Source: an uncultured candidate division Zixibacteria bacterium (GTDB lineage Bacteria; Zixibacteria; MSB-5A5; UBA10806). Taken from it: a stretch of DNA of 64,000 nucleotides. Numbering within the stretch: the first letter of the stretch is position 1; each line of letters starts with the position of its first letter. The stretch is from positions 256,001 through 320,000 of the forward strand of contig CAWDFP010000007.1 of assembly GCA_963801605.1 (NCBI GenBank). The letters run 5' to 3'. The position numbers were made by a program, and so were the translations under genes. The notes below the pieces were generated by a model. It was not told where the DNA came from. It did not search any database and worked only from the letters and a program-made list of their open reading frames with translations. Below, in pieces: positions 25,865 to 36,497 of the stretch.

Positions 25865-27574
25865 CTATATCCTATCAGGCGGGCAGTCATAACAGAAACG
25901 GAGCCTGCCATAACGACCCTTTAAATAACTTATATAAAATGTGACATCCATACCATTGAAGCAGCAGGAGCCGTTGACATCTCCTGCTGCATAGAAGGGC
26001 CTAATTATTCCCTGACAATCGCAGTCAACAGACAGAGGCGCTCCCCCTCCTTTAAGGTAGTTAACTGCATTGACAACATCTGCGCCGTTTTTAAGACTAT
26101 CACCGTTCAAATCTCCCAACAGATAACTGCATCTTACAGGACCCTCCCGAAATGAAAATTGCTCAATAAGCGGTGTTGTTGGTATTAAGTCAGCCGGTAT
26201 TTTCTGGTAGATAACATAGTTTTGAGTATAACTGCCCTCTTCCTCTTGAGCCACTCCGGCATCCTTATCCAGGATATAGGTGATATGCAGCGTGTCATTT
26301 ACTACATCAAGGAGCGAAGCCTGTATTTCAGAGGAGCAGTCTCCGGGGTGGCAGCGACTGGTGTGGGTATCGGTAATATTAACCCCTGTTGACCAGTTGA
26401 GGCCATTATCAGTTGATACCGTAATCCATAGGTCGGCGACGCCATATCCCAGATAGGATCTTTCATCAGGATAATAGCGCTCATAGAGCATATAAAGGTA
26501 GCTGTTGGCAGGATTTATGGCCATTTGGGGCCTGTTTACGGTGCGGCTGCAATAGCCGAGGATAGCGTTATCGGCAGGATCCCGCAACCAGCCATCGGCA
26601 ACTACAGTGAATGAATCTGTTACCTCGCTCCAGTGCCAGATAAAACACATATTAAATTCCGCTCTATAGCTGTCCGGCTCCGCCCTGTTTATCTTAAGCT
26701 CCAGGTTATTGAAAGCGATATGGATATTATCAGCATAATCAATTATTAAATCGCTGCCATAATAAGGCCGGAAGGGATCGCTTTCGGCACAGTCGGTAAC
26801 ATTAGTTTTGTCCTGGAAATCCCAATTGAGCCCATCAGAAGAGGTGATAAGGTAAATATCCTTGTCATCGAAGGGCCCCGAAGAGCTATGATGAAGAAAG
26901 TCCCTCTGCTTGTTGTAAATAACAGCTACCTTTTCTGTGACAGGCGATGTGGCAATACAATATCCGCCGCTTAAAGTATCGATAGCCTGCCAGCCGGTGA
27001 AAGTGTATGGTTGAAGATTGTAATTGGCATATATAAGCGTATATAAGCTAGGCCATATTTCACCTCTTGCGAGAATATGTACTGCGCCGTCATTAGTTAG
27101 AGCACCGATAGGGGTATTTTCATAAGGAAAACGAATGGTATCAAGCGGGCTAGACTCAAACTGATTTCCATTCCACCAGGAGCGATAGGTCGGAAAGCTG
27201 CCGGAAGCTCCATAGATCATTTCCAAAGCATCTCTGCCCCCTGAGCTGCCTCTAAGTAGCACAGAATGGTCCTCATGATTATAAACCCCGGGAAACATCT
27301 CAAGGCCGCTATCCCCATAAGCCCAACCGGAGTCAGGGTTGTAGAAATTGAAGGCGCTGCCGCCTGTAACCCAATAGTGGTCATACGGGGCGTAGGTCCA
27401 AACGATATAGATATTGCCGGTAACGCTGTCTCTGGCTATTTGAGGACCGGGATTTGCACAGCCAAACTGCTCCTCATGCCAGGTAATGCCAACCGTATCT
27501 ACCTCGCCTATGGGTTCGGACAAGGCAGATGAGAGTGCCAGAAGAGTTAAGAGCATTACTGCGAAAAGGCGCAA
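25865..27574 (-). CDS. Secreted Asp-box (BNR) beta-propeller-like protein with C-terminal dockerin-like domain, paralog A
   Basis: TTG start after GGAGG; signal peptide; SSDGLNW, STDNGLNW; GDLNGD...GDVNGSC...FCYDCPP. Confidence 0.75.
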   Translation of the reverse strand: MRLFAVMLLTLLALSSALSEPIGEVDTVGITWHEEQFGCANPGPQIARDSVTGNIYIVWTYAPYDHYWVTGGSAFNFYNPDSGWAYGDSGLEMFPGVYNHEDHSVLLRGSSGGRDALEMIYGASGSFPTYRSWWNGNQFESSPLDTIRFPYENTPIGALTNDGAVHILARGEIWPSLYTLIYANYNLQPYTFTGWQAIDTLSGGYCIATSPVTEKVAVIYNKQRDFLHHSSSGPFDDKDIYLITSSDGLNWDFQDKTNVTDCAESDPFRPYYGSDLIIDYADNIHIAFNNLELKINRAEPDSYRAEFNMCFIWHWSEVTDSFTVVADGWLRDPADNAILGYCSRTVNRPQMAINPANSYLYMLYERYYPDERSYLGYGVADLWITVSTDNGLNWSTGVNITDTHTSRCHPGDCSSEIQASLLDVVNDTLHITYILDKDAGVAQEEEGSYTQNYVIYQKIPADLIPTTPLIEQFSFREGPVRCSYLLGDLNGDSLKNGADVVNAVNYLKGGGAPLSVDCDCQGIIRPFYAAGDVNGSCCFNGMDVTFYISYLKGRYGRLRFCYDCPPDRI

Positions 27575-27605
27575 TTGTTGTGCCTCCGGTTTTTCATGTT
27601 CTTTA

Positions 27606-27741
27606 TTACCAATATCTCGGAAATGGCGGGCAATCATAGCAGAAGCGAAGTTTCGGCTCTCTCCCCTTCAAGTAACCCACATAGAATGATTGTGGAAATA
27701 CTCATTAGAAACTGGCCAATTCTCAAAGAATAGAATTTCAT
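27606..27741 (-). pseudogene. Deletion remnant of a dockerin-type gene: signal peptide-like start fused out of frame to a C-terminal tail
   Basis: GGAGG + ATG(27741) MKFYSLRIGQFLMSISTIIL; another frame over 27686-27606 reads FYVGYLKGREPKLRFCYDCPPFPRYW*, matching the tails of the flanking paralogs. Confidence 0.8.
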
Positions 27742-27835
27742 ACATTGTCCTCCGTTTGGATTAAATGTCCATTAAACCAAAAATAACTTCAATTGGGATA
27801 TCGAATTTGCCATTAACATATCTTCTTAAAAAACA

Positions 27836-29560
27836 TTAAAGATAATCCGGCGGGCAATCTGAGCAGAAGAGGAACCTATGAAAGCGGCCCTTTAGATAAC
27901 CAACGTAATATGTGACATCCATGCCATTAAAACTGCAGGAGCCGTTAACGTCCCCTGCTCCATAAAAGGGTGCTTCCTCATTTGGACAACTGCATTCAAC
28001 AGCAGGCAGGCCCCTGCCACCCCTGAAAAAGTTAACCGCATAAACTATATCGCCGCCATTTGTCTGATTATCCCCGTTAATATCCCCCGGCATGTATGAG
28101 CATCTCACTGGCCCGTCCCTGAATGAGAATTGTTCAATAAGGGGAGTTGTGGGAATTTGGTCAGCAGGTATTTTCTGATAGATAACGTAGTTTTGGCTGG
28201 GCCAGCCCTCATGGTCTTGATATATACCGCCATCTTTATCTAATATATAGACAACATGCAGGGTATCATTTGCAATTTCATATAATGAAGCTTGCACCTC
28301 GGAGGCGCATTCTCCCGCACTGCAGTAAGGCGTGTGAGTATCTGTAATATTGGTTCCCAAAGACCAGTTGAGACCGTTATCTGTAGATACTGTGACCCAT
28401 TGATCGGCTACTCCGAAGCCGTTGCCGGAATGCTCCTCCATATAATACCGTTCATAAAGCATATAGAGATAACCATTGATGGGATTTATCGCCATTTGGG
28501 GCTTATCGACAAAACAACTATAATGCCCAAAACCGGACGGGTATGCATTGGGAATCCAGCCACTTGCCGCCACCGTAAAAGAGTCCAGATCTTCGCTCCA
28601 GTGCCACAGAAAGCACATGTTATAGGCAATCCTGGAGCTTTCTGGCTCACTTCTATTTATTTCATACTCAAGCGTCTTGAAGGCGATATGAATATTAGCC
28701 GCATAATCAAATATGGCATCAACGTCCATAAACGGCCTGAAAACATCACTCTCCGCAAAATTGGTGATGTTATTTTTTGCCTGGAGATCCCAATTTATTC
28801 CATCGGGAGAGGAAATGATATATATATCCTGATCAAAATCCAAACCGTACACGCCCGTATCCGAAAACACTCTTTGTCTCAAATAAGAAATTGCTTCCTT
28901 ATGGCTAACAGGCGAAACGGCAATGCAATAAGCCTGATTGGTCGAGGTATCCACACATTGCCAGCCGCTAAAATTATAGGGGTCTAAAACATAACTGCCA
29001 AAATATAGGCGGGAGCACCCTAATCCATCGCTTCCTTCTGCAAGCAATTGAACGCAACCATTATTAAAAATAGCGTATGATGGTACAAATTCATGGGGTG
29101 AATTAACCGTGTCAATCCGCATGGTTGTGAAGCTATCGGCATTCCACTTGGCGCGAACCATGTATGTAATTGGAGATGCTAAAACTATCTCTACATCGTC
29201 CAGGCCGCCGTAATTACCCGGCAAAAGAACTGAGTGGCACTCATTATGATAGGAGCCTGAAAACATCTCTAGGCCGCTATCGCCATAAACCCAGCCTAAA
29301 TTGGGAGTATAATAGTTGAACGCGCTATAAGAACTCCAATAGAATGATTGTGGGGCATAGCTCCAGGCTATATATATATTGCCGCCTATTGTATCCATAG
29401 CCATCATTGAGCCAGCATTGTGGCTGCCCCACTGCTTCTCGCACCAAGTAATGCCCACCGTATCTACCTCGCCTATGGGTTCGGCTATCGCCTCATTGCA
29501 GAAATACGATATAAACAAAGAAAAGACTGCGACCAAGAACCTGGACCTCACACCCAGCAT
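27836..29560 (-). CDS. Secreted Asp-box beta-propeller-like protein with C-terminal dockerin-like domain, paralog B
   Basis: Shares EPIGEVDTVGITW, STDNGLNWS, QNYVIYQKIPAD, IPTTPLIEQFSFR with paralog A. Confidence 0.78.
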   Translation of the reverse strand: MLGVRSRFLVAVFSLFISYFCNEAIAEPIGEVDTVGITWCEKQWGSHNAGSMMAMDTIGGNIYIAWSYAPQSFYWSSYSAFNYYTPNLGWVYGDSGLEMFSGSYHNECHSVLLPGNYGGLDDVEIVLASPITYMVRAKWNADSFTTMRIDTVNSPHEFVPSYAIFNNGCVQLLAEGSDGLGCSRLYFGSYVLDPYNFSGWQCVDTSTNQAYCIAVSPVSHKEAISYLRQRVFSDTGVYGLDFDQDIYIISSPDGINWDLQAKNNITNFAESDVFRPFMDVDAIFDYAANIHIAFKTLEYEINRSEPESSRIAYNMCFLWHWSEDLDSFTVAASGWIPNAYPSGFGHYSCFVDKPQMAINPINGYLYMLYERYYMEEHSGNGFGVADQWVTVSTDNGLNWSLGTNITDTHTPYCSAGECASEVQASLYEIANDTLHVVYILDKDGGIYQDHEGWPSQNYVIYQKIPADQIPTTPLIEQFSFRDGPVRCSYMPGDINGDNQTNGGDIVYAVNFFRGGRGLPAVECSCPNEEAPFYGAGDVNGSCSFNGMDVTYYVGYLKGRFHRFLFCSDCPPDYL

Positions 29561-29686
29561 AAAAGCCTCGCTCCTTGCCCCCAACTAAACCACAGCTTGC
29601 AGAATCATTGTATGCCATAAAATAATATTAATCATGTATAAAAAAGTCAAGTAAAAATAATGGATTAATTGGCAGTTATAATAACT

Positions 29687-29826
29687 TCAGCCCCCGGTCC
29701 TTATGAACCAGGGGCTGCTATTCGGAGAACTATGCTGTAATAGCTAATTCAGATGCGCTAACATCGCCGGATGAACATCCGTGAGCTTGCGTTTGAGTAT
29801 CGTGCGTCCCCGCGACAGACGGCTGC
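29687..29826. repeat. Direct repeat copy 1 (duplicate of ECF sigma 3' end + hairpin)
   Basis: 140 nt matching 32210-32348 except 2 substitutions and 1 indel. Confidence 0.95.
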
Positions 29827-29857
29827 TTCGGGCCTCCGGCCTCGTCTGCCCCCGCAA

Positions 29858-31984
29858 TTATTTCATCAGCACCATCTTAATATTCTGGCTCTTCTCCCCC
29901 GCATCGAGACGGGCGAAATAAACACCGGAGGGAAAATCTTTGGCATCCCAAACTATCTGATGCTCTCCCGCCGTCTTAGTTCCCTCAAACAGAGCCGTCA
30001 CCTTCTGACCAAGCAGGTTATAGATTGATATTGTAACGGAGCCAGCATCAGGCAAAGAATAGCTTATGGTTGTTTGGGCGTTGAAGGGGTTGGGATAGTT
30101 TTGAGAGAGGGTTAGCTCATATGGGAGGCTGACGTTTTCTATTAATTTTGTTTCGGGGTCCCTGAATATTATCAAGGAATATGTATCACAATAATATATA
30201 TAGCCACCTGAAGACGATATCGCTGCTGCAAGACCGGGAGTAATAAACCTCGAGGTTAGATGAGGGTGAGCAGGATCCGCTATATCGATTATTATTAGGC
30301 TGCTCTTCTGCTCCTCCTGATACCAGCTATCCGCCATAAAAGCATAATTGCCTAAAATGGTAACGCCCTTGGCATTACCAGGAGTGTCACAGGCCCCAAT
30401 AAATATAGGGGTTGTTGGCTCAGTAATATCCAAGATTAATAATCCATTCGCTCCGTCTGCGATAAATGCATAGTTCCCCGAAACAAACACATCTTGCGCG
30501 TATCCCGAGGTAATATATCTGCTTGTAAATATAGGATTTAAAGGATCGGTGATATTTATAATTAGTAAGGAGCTAACGTCGGCCAAATATGCGTAACCCT
30601 CGGAAACAAATACTTTACAAGTCCACCCGGGGGTGCCGTAGGCCCCTACTGAAATCGGATTCGCCGCATCAGAAATATCTACTATTTCATAACCGTACTC
30701 GCCTTCAGCGACATAAGCATAACTGCCGGAAATAGCCACATTATATGCTTTCGATGTTAGCCGACAAGCGCCTGCAAAAACTGGATTGTGAGGAACCTGC
30801 ACGTTTACTATCAATAAACCAGCTGTATCATCAGCGATGTATGCATATTCAGAAAATTGAGATGTCCCCCAAGCCCCGGCAGGAGTTTTATATGTTCCGA
30901 CCACAATAGGATTGAAGGGATTGGCGATATCTAAAATCTGAAGGCCGCTCCCCCAATTTGCCACATAAGCGTATTCCCCAGTAATTGATACTCCAAGCAC
31001 GTAATCCGGCGTGGAATATCTTCCCACAACTCGGGGCAAACGAGGATTCGCTACGTCGACGATCTGAAGTCCGCCCAAATCGGCGGCAACATAGGCGAGG
31101 CCATTCAGGACAGAAATGCCAATAGAATGGCCCTGAAAATCGCATCCCCCCACAAAAATTGGATTGACGGGATCAGCAACATTAATAACTTGAAGGCCGT
31201 TATCGCCGTCTGCCATGTAAGCATAATCCCTTGAAACTGCAATGTCTTCAGTAAAATCTTGAGTAGCATATGAGCCAACGATGGATGGGAATGTGGGATC
31301 GGATACATCTACTATTTGCATACCCCCTCTCCCGGCAGCGACATATGCATATTCACCCGAGATAATTACTTGATTTGAATAACCATCGTCAGCGGTATTA
31401 CCTACTAGAACGGGGTAATTAGGATTCGAGACATCTACAACTATTAGAGTACTTCCTGAATTGGCCAAATAGGCATAGCTTCCGGATACAAAAACCCCAT
31501 AAATATTTATGGAATTGTTATAATCTCCAATAAACTCGGGATTGGCAGGGTTAGAAATATCCATTATTTGAAGACCGGCCCTATCAGACGCGACATACGC
31601 ATATCGGCCCGATACATAGACATCCCAGGCATATCCGGAAACATAAAGACTCCCAATAAGACTTGGAATCGAAGGATCTGAAATGTCAATTACTTTAAGA
31701 CCGCCTGCGATATCCGCAAAGAAAGCGTAATTACCGGAAATAAATACTCCATAACCGGTTCCCTGCAAAAAAAGCCGGCTTGTAAGCGTTGGTGAGGCTG
31801 AATTTGAGATATCGAAAATCGCCATTCCATCGAAGAAAGCGCAATAAGCGTAATGTCCTGAGATTTTAACATCGTTGACCCCCGTCCAAAGCTCTGAACC
31901 TACATATTCAATATTTTGCGCGCTTGCAGTAAACGAAATGGTAATTAGAAATAAGGATATTGCTATTATCGCCAGCTTTTTCAA
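29858..31984 (-). CDS. Secreted LVIVD-repeat beta-propeller protein with FlgD/T9SS-A-like CTD
   Basis: Many G.YAYVA...GLQIxDISxP repeats; QNYPNPFN...SGVYFARL; TTG start after GGAGG. Confidence 0.9.
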   Translation of the reverse strand: MKKLAIIAISLFLITISFTASAQNIEYVGSELWTGVNDVKISGHYAYCAFFDGMAIFDISNSASPTLTSRLFLQGTGYGVFISGNYAFFADIAGGLKVIDISDPSIPSLIGSLYVSGYAWDVYVSGRYAYVASDRAGLQIMDISNPANPEFIGDYNNSINIYGVFVSGSYAYLANSGSTLIVVDVSNPNYPVLVGNTADDGYSNQVIISGEYAYVAAGRGGMQIVDVSDPTFPSIVGSYATQDFTEDIAVSRDYAYMADGDNGLQVINVADPVNPIFVGGCDFQGHSIGISVLNGLAYVAADLGGLQIVDVANPRLPRVVGRYSTPDYVLGVSITGEYAYVANWGSGLQILDIANPFNPIVVGTYKTPAGAWGTSQFSEYAYIADDTAGLLIVNVQVPHNPVFAGACRLTSKAYNVAISGSYAYVAEGEYGYEIVDISDAANPISVGAYGTPGWTCKVFVSEGYAYLADVSSLLIINITDPLNPIFTSRYITSGYAQDVFVSGNYAFIADGANGLLILDITEPTTPIFIGACDTPGNAKGVTILGNYAFMADSWYQEEQKSSLIIIDIADPAHPHLTSRFITPGLAAAISSSGGYIYYCDTYSLIIFRDPETKLIENVSLPYELTLSQNYPNPFNAQTTISYSLPDAGSVTISIYNLLGQKVTALFEGTKTAGEHQIVWDAKDFPSGVYFARLDAGEKSQNIKMVLMK

Positions 31985-32209: not shown

Positions 32210-32348
32210 TCAGCCCCCGGTCCTTTTGAACCAGGGGCTGCTATCGGAGAACTATGCTGTAATAGCTAATTCAGATGCGCTAACATCGCCGGATGAACAT
32301 CCGTGAGCTTGCGCTTGAGTATCGTGCGTCCCCGCGACAGACGGCTGC
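32210..32348. repeat. Direct repeat copy 2 (ECF sigma 3' end, stop and downstream hairpin)
   Basis: Matches 29687-29826; includes hairpin CAGCCCCUGGUUC-AAAA-GGACCGGGGGCUG on the minus strand. Confidence 0.95.
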
Positions 32349-32842
32349 GCACCGTGCCCAGCGGGCATCCCAGAGTAACGGAAATATCCTGATACGATAA
32401 CCCCCGCAGGTCAGCCATGATAATCATGATTCGATAATCTCCCGGCAGCGAGTTGATCGCCTTCTTGATATTATCGCTGACATAGTTGTCGAGCAGACGG
32501 TCATCATCGAAACTGATCAGGTCGGCCTCGGCGCGCCTCCGGCTTGGGACGGTCATGCAGAGTCTCGTTGTTGATCTCCTGCTGCTTGGGCGCCTTTTTA
32601 TTTTTATGATAATGATTGATATATGTGTTGGTCATGATCCTCACCAGCCAGGCCAGGCAGTTGGTGCCGCGATGAAACATTTCGAAATTGCTGTACGCTT
32701 TCAGATATGTTTCCTGCACCAAATCCTCGGAGAATACGGAATCATGAGTCAGCGCCCTGGCCAATCCATAGAGATATTCTAAATGAATCACCGCGGACTG
32801 CTCGAACTCCGTTGATAATCGTTCTTTTGAGAATTTGACCAT
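32266..32842 (-). CDS. ECF sigma-70 factor (SigH/SigR-like); frameshift around 32530-32560
   Basis: Region 2 EDLVQETYLKAY...GTNCLAWLVRIMTNTYIN; region 4 LSYQDIS..LGCPLGTVRSRLSRGR. Confidence 0.9.
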
Positions 32843-32888
32843 CTTGTCTGCTCCTGAACCAGTTAACCTAACGTTTATGGTATCCCGT

Positions 32889-33045
32889 TGTAGTCCTTGT
32901 CAGAAAAGTGATCCGCCCGAGGGTTTGCCAGTTCCGCGACCACCTTCTGTGTCGATCCTCGTCGACATTTCCCGCTCAATCTTTGCGGGGCCGCCGCTTC
33001 CGACGGCCCCACCCAAAGTAACTGAGGGGAGAGAAGCAAACTACA
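32889..33045 (-). ncRNA. Candidate structured 5' leader / ncRNA (four-way junction)
   Basis: Hand folding: P1 UGUAGUU/GACUACA closes three abutting hairpins (33030-32970, 32967-32950, 32949-32901); G-U pairs favour the minus strand. Confidence 0.55.
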
Positions 33046-33056
33046 CCAAGACCAAT

Positions 33057-33073
33057 AACAACTATTGTGCCAA
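33057..33073 (-). promoter_or_regulatory. sigma54-like -24/-12 promoter (variant -12)
   Basis: TTGGCAC-AATAG-TTGTT versus consensus TGGCAC-N5-TTGCW; AT-rich region upstream. Confidence 0.5.
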
Positions 33074-33247
33074 ATAATTTGCGGAACTAACGTATTATAC
33101 AGTAATAGGTTATGAAATGAAACTGAGGATCAAATCTATAAAATAGTGTTATTAATAACAGCAGATTTAAACTGTTACTTTAACACTATATATACAAACA
33201 ACTTATATAAAATTTGTAGTGATGATTAAAATAACACTTGTGGGATT

Positions 33248-35006
33248 TTATAACGCTTTTATCACAACCATAGTTAAATCATCGATTTCAGTCTGGCAAT
33301 TGGAGAATTTTCTGGTGGAATCTATCACATATTTAATAATTTCTTTGGCCGATAAGGCTTTTGATTCCTCTAAAGCCGTTATCAGCCTGTCGACCCCAAA
33401 TTCCTGATCATCGCAATTCTTGCTTTCGGTGACACCATCGGTATAATAAAGTAGAATATCCCCGGCATTTAGATAGATGGGACGTTCCTCATAAGCTGAA
33501 TCGTGGAAAGTCCCCAGGGCCAGGCCGCCCTCTTTGAGATATTCTACCGCCCCATTAGCCCGACGAAGAATCGGCGGGTTATGACCGGCATTGGAAAACG
33601 TCAATACTCGATTCTTGGAATCGAGTACACAATAAATGGCAGTCACATAGTTGTCACGTTCCATCGATTCAAACAGCAGATTGTTGACCTTAAAAAGTAT
33701 CGCCCTGATTGCGAAATTATTCCTGATCTCGGCTTTCAAGCTGGCGCGGAATGATGCCATGATAAGAGAAGCCGGCACTCCCTTGCCGGAGACATCGCCA
33801 ATTGCTACCCCAAGCTGGTTATCTACAATGGGAATAAAATCGTAATAGTCTCCCCCCACTGCCGCCGATGGTATATTAATTCCCGATATATCGAAACCGT
33901 CAATTTGCGGGTCCTGTGATGGAAGAAAGGTCATCTGGATTCGTCTGGCAATGGATAGCTCCAGATCGAGTTTTCTGGCCGCCATTCGCTCGTTGTAAAG
34001 ACGAGCCCGTTCTATCGAAATTGCCGCCAGGCTGGCGAAAGCGTTGAGAAGCTCCAGGTCATGCTGAGAATAAGCGCCGGGCTTATCATGCTCAATATTG
34101 AAAGCTCCGATAACATTTTCCCCTACTTTGAGGGGCACCGCCAATTCGGAGCGCGTTTCTACCCGGCACGCTATATAATCAGGATTTTGGGTAACATCGG
34201 ATACAATTATGGCATTGACCCGTTTGCACCACTCGGCCGGTGATCCCCTGTCCAATTCGCATCGGAAGGCTGTCTCGCATCGCCTCCGGTACTCCCCTGC
34301 TGACAATATCATGAATGACTTTGCCGCTGGGGGAAATCAAATAAATCATGGCGCTGTTGTACGAGACTACCCGTCTAAGATTATCGAGAATCTTTTCAAG
34401 CAGATCATCCAATTCAAGTGTGGCAGATAGAGCGATTCCAACCTCATAAAGAGACCGGGCCTCCCGCGATCCGCGTTTGGCGTCCTCGAGAAACCAGGAA
34501 TTTCGAAGCGCCACCGCTACATGATTGCCGAGCGCGCTTAGAGTTGCGAGCTCCTCCTGCGAAAAGCCTTCGGGCCTCTGGCTGTTTGCCGCCTGAACCA
34601 TCCCGAAAAATTCGCCTTCGGCAAAGAGCGGCACGCTGATGAGATTCTTGGGTTTGTTCCGGTAATACCCGCCCGCTAACTCCTGGAATTGAATATCGCT
34701 TTCGAGATCATTAGCGATCACCGGGCCGCGATTAGCTGAGCGCCAGCCAATAAGCGCGTCGCTGTAAGTATGCGGTTTAATATCATGATGATCGGAACCA
34801 TCGAACAGCGTATACAGCTTCAGCACGTTGTTGCGAAGATCGCTTAAAACCACGCTGGCCATTTCGCATTTGAATAGCGTTGTCAGCGATGACAACACAT
34901 TTTTCAGGGCCGCTTCGAGCTTGAGATCGGAATTGATTTTAAGCAGCGACGATATAAAACCATCGTCATCAATATCCCGGAAAACTTGGTTTTTATTATC
35001 AGACAT
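33248..35006 (-). CDS. Tandem-GAF PP2C/SpoIIE (RsbU-like) phosphatase; frameshift near 34215
   Basis: Two GAF domains; ARRIQMTFLP, VGGDYYD, GDVSGKG, NAGHNPP, YTDGVTE, DDLT. Confidence 0.92.
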
Positions 35007-35089: not shown

Positions 35090-36497
35090 TTATCTCAGAT
35101 TCATGCTCATCTTGATTTTATCTTCCCAGTTATTATCTTTGATCTCGTCCCTCTTAGAGGAGTGTACAAGAGTATAGTCTTCGGCATTTTCAAAATCAAC
35201 AAAGACAAAATATACGCCGCCCTCTATGCCCGTGTACCACCATCTCTCCCATGACCGAGCCTCGATGGTCTGCGGAAAACGTTCGATTTCATTGGGTTCG
35301 CCATAAATTATATAAACCCGCCCACGATCAGTTTTCCAACCGGCGTGACCGCCCTTAAATTTGCCGAAAGCTTCCTTAACATATTTAATACGTCTGTAAT
35401 GCTCTATTTCGTAGGCGTTTTGAGGCGATGACGGATTGGAATTTCGCCTTGCCCAGAAATCTTTCTGAAAGGCCGCTTTGCCGGTTAAATTTAGGGAGTC
35501 GTAAAGCTTAAGTTCATCGGGGGTGGCAATATACGCAATTTCATCTTTGAAATTCTTGGCGTCCTCCTCGGAGGTTATATTGTTTGCCTCGGGAAATTCG
35601 CGTAAAATGCTCTGCATCATCGTTCTTCGGGCCACTTCGCGGGATTCGACTATCGAAAACTGCTTGGATGCAGAAACTGTATCGGGGCCGTCATCAAGCG
35701 TCATGATTAAATTATACTCGCCCGCCTTGAGTGTATCTATGGGAAAACCAACAACAATCACTGCCGATTCACCCGGCTTTACATACGTTATGGACGGATG
35801 AGTTTGAATCGGCTGCCCTCCCAGCGTTAATACCTTGAGCGTAACATGAAACATTGTATCGGCGTCAGCGCTCGTATCCAGTCCGTAACCTTCAGCGTAA
35901 ACACTGGCTATTTTTGCAGCCTGTAGATATTGGCCCGATGGATTTGGCATTACTAACAATCCGTTTTTTACGAACCTGCCGCCTGCAGAATCGGCTTTTA
36001 TCTGGTATGCCAGCTCAATCGATGATAGAGCCGGCTTGGTGCCCTTAAACGCCGGTACGTCCATGATAAACGAGGCAAACCCATCCTTATCGCCGTTTGT
36101 AACAGACAAATCGACCTGATAATGTCCGGCCGGAATCGGATTTCCATACATGTCGGAAATGAGGTAATTGGCTATCATCTAACAAGGAGAGTTTGTCTAT
36201 GCGGTTAGCGGCTTTCCACGACAGGGAATCTATAATCGTACCTTTGGTATTTTTAAGATCCAGCTTGAAATTAATCATGGCCTCGTAGCCGTTTTCCAGC
36301 GGCTCGTATTTTAGCTGATTGCGCCGCAGGTTGTAATGAATCTCGACATAGGAATTGACGGTATCGCCCGGAATTCTGAACACCGCATAGTCAGCGTCAA
36401 ATTGCAGCCCTCTGGATTCTTTACTCTCGGCCCTTGATTGCCCGAGCCAAAGAAACGCCAGAACCGCAATACCAAACAAAGTGATAGCTTTTTTCAT
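35090..36497 (-). CDS. Secreted GWxTD domain protein; frameshift near 36170
   Basis: Signal peptide in ORF 36087-36497; GWKTDRGRVYIIYGEP, ERWWY. Confidence 0.85.

What the first reader, a model, noticed from the sequence alone, without database searches (positions are those of the whole stretch)
32843..33073. sigma54-like promoter plus four-way-junction RNA leader upstream of an orphan ECF sigma factor
Seen: on the minus strand TTGGCAC-N5-TTGTT (33073-33057) predicts +1 near 33046, right at the base of closing stem P1 (UGUAGUU 33045-33039 / GACUACA 32895-32889). P1 encloses three abutting hairpins. P2 (33030-32970) is UCCC-CUCAGU-CUUUG-GGGGCCGUCG-GAAG-CGGCGGCCCC-CAAAG-AUUGAG-GGGA. P3 (32967-32950) is UGUCGA-CGAGGA-UCGACA. 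P4 (32949-32901) is CAGAAGGUGGUC...GAUCACUUUUCUG. The segment is GC-rich next to AT-rich DNA and ends about 45 nt before the sigma ATG. Known: SigH/SigR-type ECFs usually have a co-transcribed anti-sigma, and none follows here. Inference: a possibly undescribed cis-regulatory RNA or sRNA that could substitute for anti-sigma control in a sigma54-to-ECF cascade. I do not recognise it as a known riboswitch class.
Basis: partly seen in the sequence, partly recalled or inferred. Interest (0 to 1): 0.72.

Follow-up and report, generated by a model that had tools for sequence, protein, structure and literature searches.

The report
Conserved sigma-54 small RNA of Zixibacteria
A roughly 65-base sequence behind a sigma-54-type promoter is kept almost unchanged across one order of uncultured Zixibacteria, even in genomes that lack the neighbouring sigma-factor gene, so it is likely an undescribed small regulatory RNA that would silence other messenger RNAs, whereas the four-way fold first proposed is peculiar to this one genome.

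Summary
The sigma-54 box and a conserved RNA are real; the four-way junction is not the conserved object. Only the first ~65 nt (33046-32985) are kept: an invariant C/U-rich 5' stretch plus one covarying hairpin. It occurs once in 23 of 24 genomes of the order, each time at the predicted +1 of a -24/-12 box, usually with upstream enhancer-like dyads. No Rfam match; none found outside the order. In 6 of those 23 genomes no ECF gene follows, and the hairpin has a U-rich tail, so the RNA is selected independently of the ECF. P1, P3 and P4 are not conserved. Best reading: a trans-acting, Hfq-independent small RNA that shares a sigma-54 transcript with the ECF gene in most lineages. No conserved mRNA target was found, so base-pairing is inferred; a protein decoy stays open. 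The ECF gene is frameshifted here and rpoN is unassembled, both probably assembly faults. The scan had no sequence look-alike but noted analogous sigma-54/hairpin/ECF units in other phyla.

The parts
33220..33236 (-). Distal enhancer-like dyad (TGTTA-N7-CATCA; family consensus TGTTA-N7-TAACA), 165 bp upstream of the -24 GG; predicted sigma-54 activator site
33147..33163 (-). Proximal enhancer-like dyad (TGCTG-N7-TAACA), 92 bp upstream of the -24 GG
33057..33073 (-). Sigma-54 -24/-12 promoter box; relatives mostly have TTGC at -12; predicted +1 = 33046
   Evidence: present in 23 of 23 genome loci at 9-13 nt from predicted +1 to the invariant core
33014..33046 (-). Conserved C/U-rich 5' segment of the RNA; invariant core UUCUCUCCCCUCAGU at 33035-33021; putative seed or protein-binding site
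32987..33010 (-). GC-rich hairpin (33010-33001 / 32996-32987), variable loop, compensatory changes; terminator-like where a U-rich tail follows
32843..32984 (-).
32266..32842 (-). ECF sigma factor gene (sigma70 r2 + r4.2; best NCBIfam match SigH_actino, below cut-off), split here by a one-base frameshift near 32532; intact (183-195 aa) in relatives
32211..32240 (-). Strong terminator-like hairpin behind the ECF gene

Best explanation
The conserved unit is a ~65-nt sequence that starts at the predicted +1 of a sigma-54 promoter, has an invariant C/U-rich 5' stretch and ends in one covarying hairpin, and it likely acts as a trans-acting, Hfq-independent small RNA whose 5' stretch would pair with G-rich ribosome-binding regions of several mRNAs. 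Shown: conservation, single copy, promoter spacing, upstream dyads, hairpin covariation, persistence without the ECF, U-rich tail where no ECF follows. Inferred: an unidentified enhancer-binding protein binds the two dyads and fires the promoter. In ECF-less lineages the hairpin would terminate transcription and release the RNA directly. In family f1 (this genome) the U tract is missing, so transcription would read through into the ECF gene, and the short RNA would have to be released by processing or Rho-dependent termination, or act while still attached. One signal would thus give both an activator (the ECF sigma) and a repressor (the RNA). Targets are not identified.
For: Single copy in 23 of 24 genomes of the order, 0 hits for the reversed control pattern in 285 genomes. 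15 consecutive columns invariant in the 22 blastn-found sequences of alignment A1. It is the only 100%-identical (36/36) match among 28 non-tRNA intergenic matches, rRNA pieces included, between this genome and G014 of the other family. Conservation begins at the predicted +1 in 23 of 23 loci. Hairpin: 99.4% of 337 cells paired, 9 of 10 pairs with two-sided changes, covariation 0.77 vs at most 0.26 for slid partners (the alignment was fitted to the structure); a separate script count agrees. Six genomes (89-99% complete) keep promoter, dyads and RNA with no ECF behind it and have only paralogue-level ECF matches. U in the 10 nt from the stem end: mean 5.7 without ECF (n=9), 4.7 in f2-type ECF loci (n=6), 2.0 in f1 (n=19). 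No Hfq in 24 of 24 genomes, no ProQ in 5 of 5. C/U-rich single-stranded seeds targeting G-rich ribosome-binding sites are described for CJnc190 and RepG in bacteria without Hfq (PMC8687705, passages) and for many Gram-positive sRNAs (PMC12205990, passages).
Against: No conserved target: over 1325 orthologue pairs between this genome and G014, shared seed matches were no more frequent than with shuffled seeds (whole genes: 0 and 2 vs 0-5; start regions: 4 vs mean 7.8 and 1 vs mean 1.0; 4 vs 0-7). The two best candidates did not hold across the order: a cohesin/T9SS gene 2 of 20 loci in the top 5%; ybaB 8 of 10 in f1 but 1 of 8 in f2. In f1 there is no intrinsic terminator, and the 5' stretch is predicted to be largely paired with its own purine-rich leader in the long transcript (mean unpaired probability 0.08-0.52). 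The U tails of ECF-less loci are interrupted, not clean U runs. No expression data. rpoN is not found in this assembly. Kin are not independent, so counts across genomes overstate.
Confidence: 0.52

Rival explanations
1. Same sigma-54-driven small RNA, but the invariant C/U stretch is a binding site for a protein, so the RNA works as a decoy or sponge (CrcZ- or GlmY-like logic) rather than by pairing with mRNAs.
For: Invariance over 15-24 nt with no conserved complementary site in either start regions or coding regions; persistence without the ECF fits equally; sigma-54 RNAs include decoys (GlmY: PMC4152352, listing abstract only).
Against: Single motif, not the repeated motifs typical of decoys (recalled). 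CsrA is present in 5 of 5 genomes but the conserved part has no GGA. RapZ found in 0 of 5, Hfq in 0 of 24.
Confidence: 0.22
2. It is a cis-acting leader or attenuator (terminator plus anti-Shine-Dalgarno strand) that gates the downstream gene, originally the ECF; the ECF-less copies are recent relics or gate other cargo. In this genome the 5' strand would switch between P1 (ribosome site free) and the Shine-Dalgarno region (site blocked).
For: ECF follows in 17 of 23 genome loci, in both families. In the window the 5' half pairs 10 bp with the ECF ribosome-binding region (percentile 0.007), and P1 and this pairing exclude each other. f2-type ECF loci have partial U tails, as an attenuator would. 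Rli51 is both attenuator and trans-acting sRNA (PMC11394854, abstract).
Against: Pairing with the ECF start region is unremarkable across 24 loci (median percentile 0.25-0.31). Pairing with the sequence behind the hairpin is explained by purine content (mean z -0.56, none of 17 with p<0.05). The core is as well kept in six ECF-less genomes from three genera, four of which have only tRNA genes next.
Confidence: 0.18
3. A four-way-junction structured leader (riboswitch-like) replaces anti-sigma control of the ECF.
For: The junction is the predicted fold of the 157-177 nt partial transcript (z -3.92; P1 probabilities 0.6-1.0); no anti-sigma follows.
Against: P1 3' strand in 1 of 23 leaders; P3 and P4 not conserved even in the genus; region behind the hairpin folds like shuffles here (z -0.45) and in most relatives; leader length varies from about 104 to 212 nt.
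Confidence: 0.03
4. The conserved stretch is a DNA site, or part of a small protein-coding gene on either strand, not an RNA.
For: An 80-aa ORF crosses it on the + strand in the window and open frames of varying length occur in relatives.
Against: Frame length varies from about 15 to over 130 codons and many lack a start (29 loci printed before the script stopped); one-base indels in the linker and loops of any length; strand-specific position at +1 and a covarying hairpin with G-U pairs.
Confidence: 0.05

Closest known systems
C/U-rich, Hfq-independent trans-acting sRNAs: CJnc190 (Campylobacter jejuni) and RepG (Helicobacter pylori) (PMC8687705, passages); C-rich-seed sRNAs of Gram-positive bacteria (PMC12205990, passages)
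   Same: Short RNA with a C/U-rich accessible stretch complementary to G-rich ribosome-binding regions, in a lineage without Hfq or ProQ
   Different: Seed lies at the 5' end before a single hairpin rather than in a loop; sigma-54 promoter; co-transcribed with an ECF gene in most lineages; no target shown; no sequence similarity (Rfam negative)
Pxr of Myxococcales (PMC5684412, PMC5568312, passages)
   Same: Clade-restricted sRNA from a predicted sigma-54 promoter with enhancer region in a bacterium without Hfq; conserved 5' part and 3' stem
   Different: Pxr has three stem-loops, 108 nt, and lies directly behind its activator gene nla19/pxrR; here one hairpin, ~65 nt, no activator gene nearby; no Rfam match even at E<=10
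GlmY/GlmZ promoters of Enterobacteriaceae (PMC3045617, passages)
   Same: Sigma-54 box, multiple TGT...ACA activator dyads and IHF-like sites driving a small RNA
   Different: GlrR site is TGTC-N10-GACA (18 bp), here TGTTA-N7-TAACA (17 bp); RNA unrelated; RapZ not found in 5 genomes
RybB/MicV (PMC6694218, passages)
   Same: Conserved 5'-terminal seed followed by a terminator-type hairpin; an sRNA as the repressing arm beside an ECF sigma factor
   Different: RybB is transcribed by the ECF (sigma-E) and needs Hfq; here RNA and ECF are both downstream of sigma-54 on one transcript
Rli51 of Listeria (PMC11394854, abstract) and FlmE/CJnc230 of C. jejuni (PMC11187230, passages)
   Same: Small RNA sharing a transcript with a protein gene: 5' UTR attenuator plus trans action (Rli51), or processed out of an RpoN-dependent mRNA (FlmE)
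   Different: No conserved antiterminator found here; FlmE lies 3' of its gene; release of the RNA in f1 is untested

Membership tests
Any Rfam family | Covariance-model score at or above gathering threshold | tested here: not met
   0 matches in the window; best over the element 15.7 bits vs 45.3; in three ECF-less loci at most 23.6 bits vs 99
Sigma-54-dependent promoter | GG-N10-GC (-24/-12) box at fixed spacing | tested here: met
   23 of 23 genome loci and 15 of 17 metagenome hits; TTGT variant in the window
Sigma-54-dependent promoter | Upstream activator dyads about 80-200 bp away | tested here: met
   TGTTA-N7-TAACA with <=2 mismatches in 18 of 33 and 13 of 33 loci in two windows chosen, vs shuffled means 1.3 and 1.1; strict dyad+box pattern hits 6 of 24 genomes, all at this promoter
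Sigma-54-dependent promoter | rpoN and enhancer-binding proteins in the genome | tested here: inconclusive
   rpoN in 30 of 30 relatives but 0 in this 87%-complete assembly; its neighbours hpf and hprK are missing too; 15 strong activator-domain matches present
Sigma-54-dependent promoter | Transcription from the predicted +1, dependent on RpoN | not testable with these tools
   needs transcript mapping
C/U-rich trans-acting sRNA (CJnc190/RepG/RsaE type) | Conserved C/U-rich stretch, accessible in the short RNA | tested here: met
   Invariant core; mostly unpaired in the centroid of the 65-nt form, though paired in the long read-through form
C/U-rich trans-acting sRNA (CJnc190/RepG/RsaE type) | Conserved complementary G-rich site on target mRNAs | tested here: inconclusive
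   No excess over shuffled seeds in a two-genome screen of 1325 pairs; the screen would miss short or lineage-specific sites
C/U-rich trans-acting sRNA (CJnc190/RepG/RsaE type) | Discrete transcript with its own 3' end | tested here: inconclusive
   Terminator-like tail in ECF-less and f2-type loci, not in f1
Pxr | Three stem-loops and position behind nla19/pxrR | tested here: not met
   One conserved hairpin; upstream gene is a GAF-SpoIIE phosphatase or another protein
CsrB/RsmZ decoys | Multiple conserved GGA loops (recalled) | tested here: not met
   No GGA in the conserved part; hairpin loop is variable
Riboswitch-like four-way junction | Conserved, covarying multi-helix core | tested here: not met
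   Only one helix conserved
SigH/SigR-RshA sigma/anti-sigma pair | Co-transcribed ZAS anti-sigma (recalled) and family-level score | tested here: not met
   No HxxxCxxC ORF behind the gene in 24 of 24 loci; the two fragments score 87 and 58 bits vs cut-off 252

The most novel reading that the evidence does not exclude
An order-wide, dual-output sigma-54 transcript: its 5' 65 nt are a trans-acting regulatory RNA and its body encodes an anti-sigma-less ECF factor, with loss or gain of the U tail deciding between a free-standing RNA and a coupled RNA-plus-sigma message. It would be a first regulatory RNA family for Zixibacteria, one of several C-rich RNAs there working without Hfq or ProQ, and its invariant stretch may bind a partner (RNA or protein) not yet known.
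Probability: 0.4. Interest if true: 0.7.

Novelty: new variant of a known kind. Interest (0 to 1): 0.52.

Why it matters
It defines a compact, testable RNA family in an uncultured phylum for which my searches found no described regulatory RNA, together with its promoter, enhancer consensus and a natural series (with ECF and no terminator, with ECF and partial terminator, without ECF and with terminator). That series shows how a small RNA and a sigma-factor gene can be coupled or uncoupled on one sigma-54 transcript. It also offers an account of how the ECF is controlled without an adjacent anti-sigma: by sigma-54-dependent transcription rather than by an RNA fold. The ingredients (sigma-54 sRNAs, C/U-rich seeds, 5'-UTR-derived sRNAs) are each known, which caps the surprise.

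Tried and rejected
Rfam at gathering and E<=10: nothing. Further copies in the own genome: none. Homologues outside the order: 2 of 261 genomes had 3-mismatch pattern hits lacking promoter and hairpin; covariance model over 138 non-order genomes gave at most 23.7 bits vs 72.7-84.2 for order members (stricter filters); 56 of 76 GTDB pattern hits lacked the flanks and hairpin by inspection; 2 of 17 metagenome hits were chance. MAFFT alignment A1 was out of register in the hairpin, so a model-fitted alignment was used; the two chance hits were dropped before counting. Self-masking 'anti-seed' behind the hairpin: composition only. Pairing with the ECF ribosome site: not conserved. Targets: best single-genome duplex, inside atpB (-44 kcal/mol), had no shared site in the two-genome screen and the G014 DNA match did not cover it; wobble-tolerant complement scan of 24 genomes showed no excess beyond the RNA gene itself; cohesin/T9SS gene rejected; ybaB holds only in f1 and partly reflects dnaX codons (L358 dropped, 18 bases). 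Cognate activator: an NtrC-type gene followed by a second sigma-54 promoter scored well, but that promoter carries a different, TGCA-type conserved motif in 22 loci: rejected. IHF-like sites are visible in many relatives but degenerate in the window; not counted as evidence. Sequencing runs: no RNA holder listed; shares were small. Small ORFs on either strand: not conserved.

Full report
Observation. The 208-nt leader folds better than shuffles (z -3.63) and matches no Rfam family. Splitting it shows where the signal lies: the first 65 nt give z -2.6, the 139 nt behind the hairpin z -0.45. The four-way junction is predicted only for transcripts ending before the ribosome-binding site; in the full leader P1 is replaced by pairing of the same 5' strand with the ECF Shine-Dalgarno region. 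The downstream gene is an ECF sigma factor, split here into 112 and 96 aa.

Taxon and assembly. The assembly is indel-rich: 165 of 2220 orthologue groups are split by a frameshift versus 4 of 2262 in G014, and one contig of a close relative lacks one base at 32532 (single contig, depth 3). Relatives have intact 183-195 aa ECFs. The frameshift is therefore probably an assembly fault, though a real lesion is not excluded. rpoN is not found here but is in 30 of 30 relatives; its neighbours hpf and hprK are missing as well and 15 strong activator-domain matches remain, which fits an assembly gap (87% complete).

What is conserved. A DNA search of 61 genomes picked out query positions 216-254 (33045-33007) at 97-100% identity across the order. 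A 23-nt pattern finds one copy in 23 of 24 genomes of the order and no credible copy in 261 others of the phylum; a covariance model separates order members (72.7-84.2 bits) from 138 others (at most 23.7). Fifteen of 17 metagenome hits are further members (their core was fixed by the search pattern, so they do not test its invariance). In the 22 blastn-found sequences the core at 33035-33021 is invariant. All 23 genome loci have a -24/-12 box whose predicted +1 lies 9-13 nt before the core. The following hairpin is paired in 99.4% of cells with two-sided changes in 9 of 10 pairs (model-fitted alignment of 34; one search agrees). Nothing behind it is conserved: leaders run from about 104 to 212 nt and P1's 3' strand is found only in the window.

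Promoter anatomy. Upstream regions share a dyad TGTTA-N7-TAACA at two positions, about -162 and -90 from the -24 GG in family f1 and about -194 and -112 in f2; counts in two position windows, chosen after seeing the data, were 18 and 13 of 33 against shuffled means near 1. A strict dyad-plus-box pattern hits 6 of 24 genomes, each time at this promoter, and never in the reversed control. With a matrix partly trained on these sites the promoter ranks first of 386 sigma-54-like boxes in this genome but only fifth of 283 in G014. The layout resembles the glmY promoter (PMC3045617, passages). The cognate activator was not identified; one candidate was rejected.

Independence from the ECF. The locus is usually GWxTD genes, a GAF-SpoIIE phosphatase, (another gene), promoter and RNA, a variable slot, tRNA-Met and tRNA-Val, a zinc-ribbon gene and guaB (the last two named from recall of their sequences). 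The slot holds the ECF in 17 of 23 genomes, an unrelated gene in 2 and nothing in 4. The six ECF-less genomes (three genera, 89-99% complete) have only paralogue-level ECF matches (E about 1e-32 to 1e-34 versus 1e-45 or better), yet keep RNA, box and dyads. The tail changes with the slot: mean U in 10 nt is 5.7 without ECF, 4.7 in f2-type ECF loci and 2.0 in f1 (kin are not independent and family is confounded with slot). No anti-sigma ORF follows the ECF in 24 of 24 loci.

Mechanism. An invariant pyrimidine-rich 5' stretch at the start site, one hairpin, no Hfq (0 of 24) and no ProQ (0 of 5) resemble C/U-rich base-pairing sRNAs such as CJnc190 and RepG (PMC8687705, passages; PMC12205990, passages) and the 5'-seed design of RybB (PMC6694218, passages). 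Against this, every target test was negative: 1325 orthologue pairs between this genome and G014 gave no pair that stands out (top pair ranked 1 and 125; by my arithmetic about one such is expected), seed matches did not exceed shuffled seeds, and follow-up of two candidates failed or held only in f1. The screen covers two genomes, uses rough start calls and would miss short or moving sites, so it lowers but does not remove the pairing model (0.52). A protein decoy (0.22) fits the same data; CsrA is present (5 of 5) but the conserved part has no GGA, and RapZ was not found (0 of 5). A cis attenuator or anti-Shine-Dalgarno leader (0.18) is suggested by this genome (percentile 0.007) but not by the family (median 0.25-0.31); a dual role as in Rli51 (PMC11394854, abstract) is possible. 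How f1 releases a short RNA without a terminator is unexplained; processing from an RpoN-dependent message is known for FlmE (PMC11187230, passages).

Comparison and novelty. It works like a sigma-54-driven sRNA (Pxr: PMC5684412 and PMC5568312, passages; GlmY) but is a member of none tested. Searches joining Zixibacteria with small RNA, structured RNA, sigma factor, Hfq or transcriptome listed no paper on it: I saw listings and abstract starts only, 15 of 22; subscription journals and supplements were not searched, and large motif collections in supplements could hold it. The scan's own index had no sequence look-alike but lists unchecked analogues: a sigma-54/C-loop hairpin/ECF unit in Latescibacterota and sigma-54 RNAs in Syntrophales and Acidobacteria.

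Noticed in passing
G000:C6:1684319-1684385, minus strand (G014: L208:8415-8481): Second candidate small RNA: sigma-70-like promoter, one hairpin with a C-rich loop, U-rich tail in G014; its core pattern occurs once in 23 of 24 genomes of the order; no Rfam match at gathering in L208.
   Followed up: partly
G000:C6:1140935-1141005, minus strand (L208:15418-15489): Closed multi-hairpin element with an anti-Shine-Dalgarno-like C-rich stretch and a U7 tail, 81% identical between the two families; no Rfam match at gathering.
   Followed up: no
G000:C6:354386-354505, minus strand (L296:193-315): 120-nt intergenic element, 84% identical between families, no Rfam match at gathering; could be a divergent 6S-like or leader RNA (untested).
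   Followed up: no
G000:C7:40436-40740 and L320-L339, L171:8416-8600: A sigma-54 box with a conserved TGCA-rich upstream motif lies behind a single-copy NtrC-type activator gene in 22 of 22 loci and precedes a small protein with no NCBIfam match that resembles a degenerate GGDEF domain (recalled).
   Followed up: partly
L340-L357; G000:C11:62851-63220: ybaB has a conserved possible start 13 codons upstream of the usual one; in family f1 the dnaX-ybaB junction carries a G-rich site complementary to the RNA either in the dnaX end or at that ribosome site (8 of 10 in the top 5%), but in only 1 of 8 f2 loci. Weak target lead.
   Followed up: partly
window 33248-35006 and 35090-36497: The upstream GAF-SpoIIE gene and a GWxTD gene are each split in two here but whole in relatives, in line with an indel-rich assembly.
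   Followed up: partly
window 25865-31984: In this genome the slot behind the ECF holds secreted LVIVD-repeat/T9SS and related proteins instead of the tRNA-Met/tRNA-Val pair found there in most relatives; the site looks like an insertion or rearrangement hot spot.
   Followed up: no
window 32901-32969, minus strand: A 22-codon ORF with a purine-rich upstream stretch lies in the non-conserved leader; short ORFs at a similar place in some relatives differ in sequence (read).
   Followed up: no
G000 whole assembly: The rpoN-hpf-hprK block has no tblastn match in this assembly; probably an assembly gap.
   Followed up: partly
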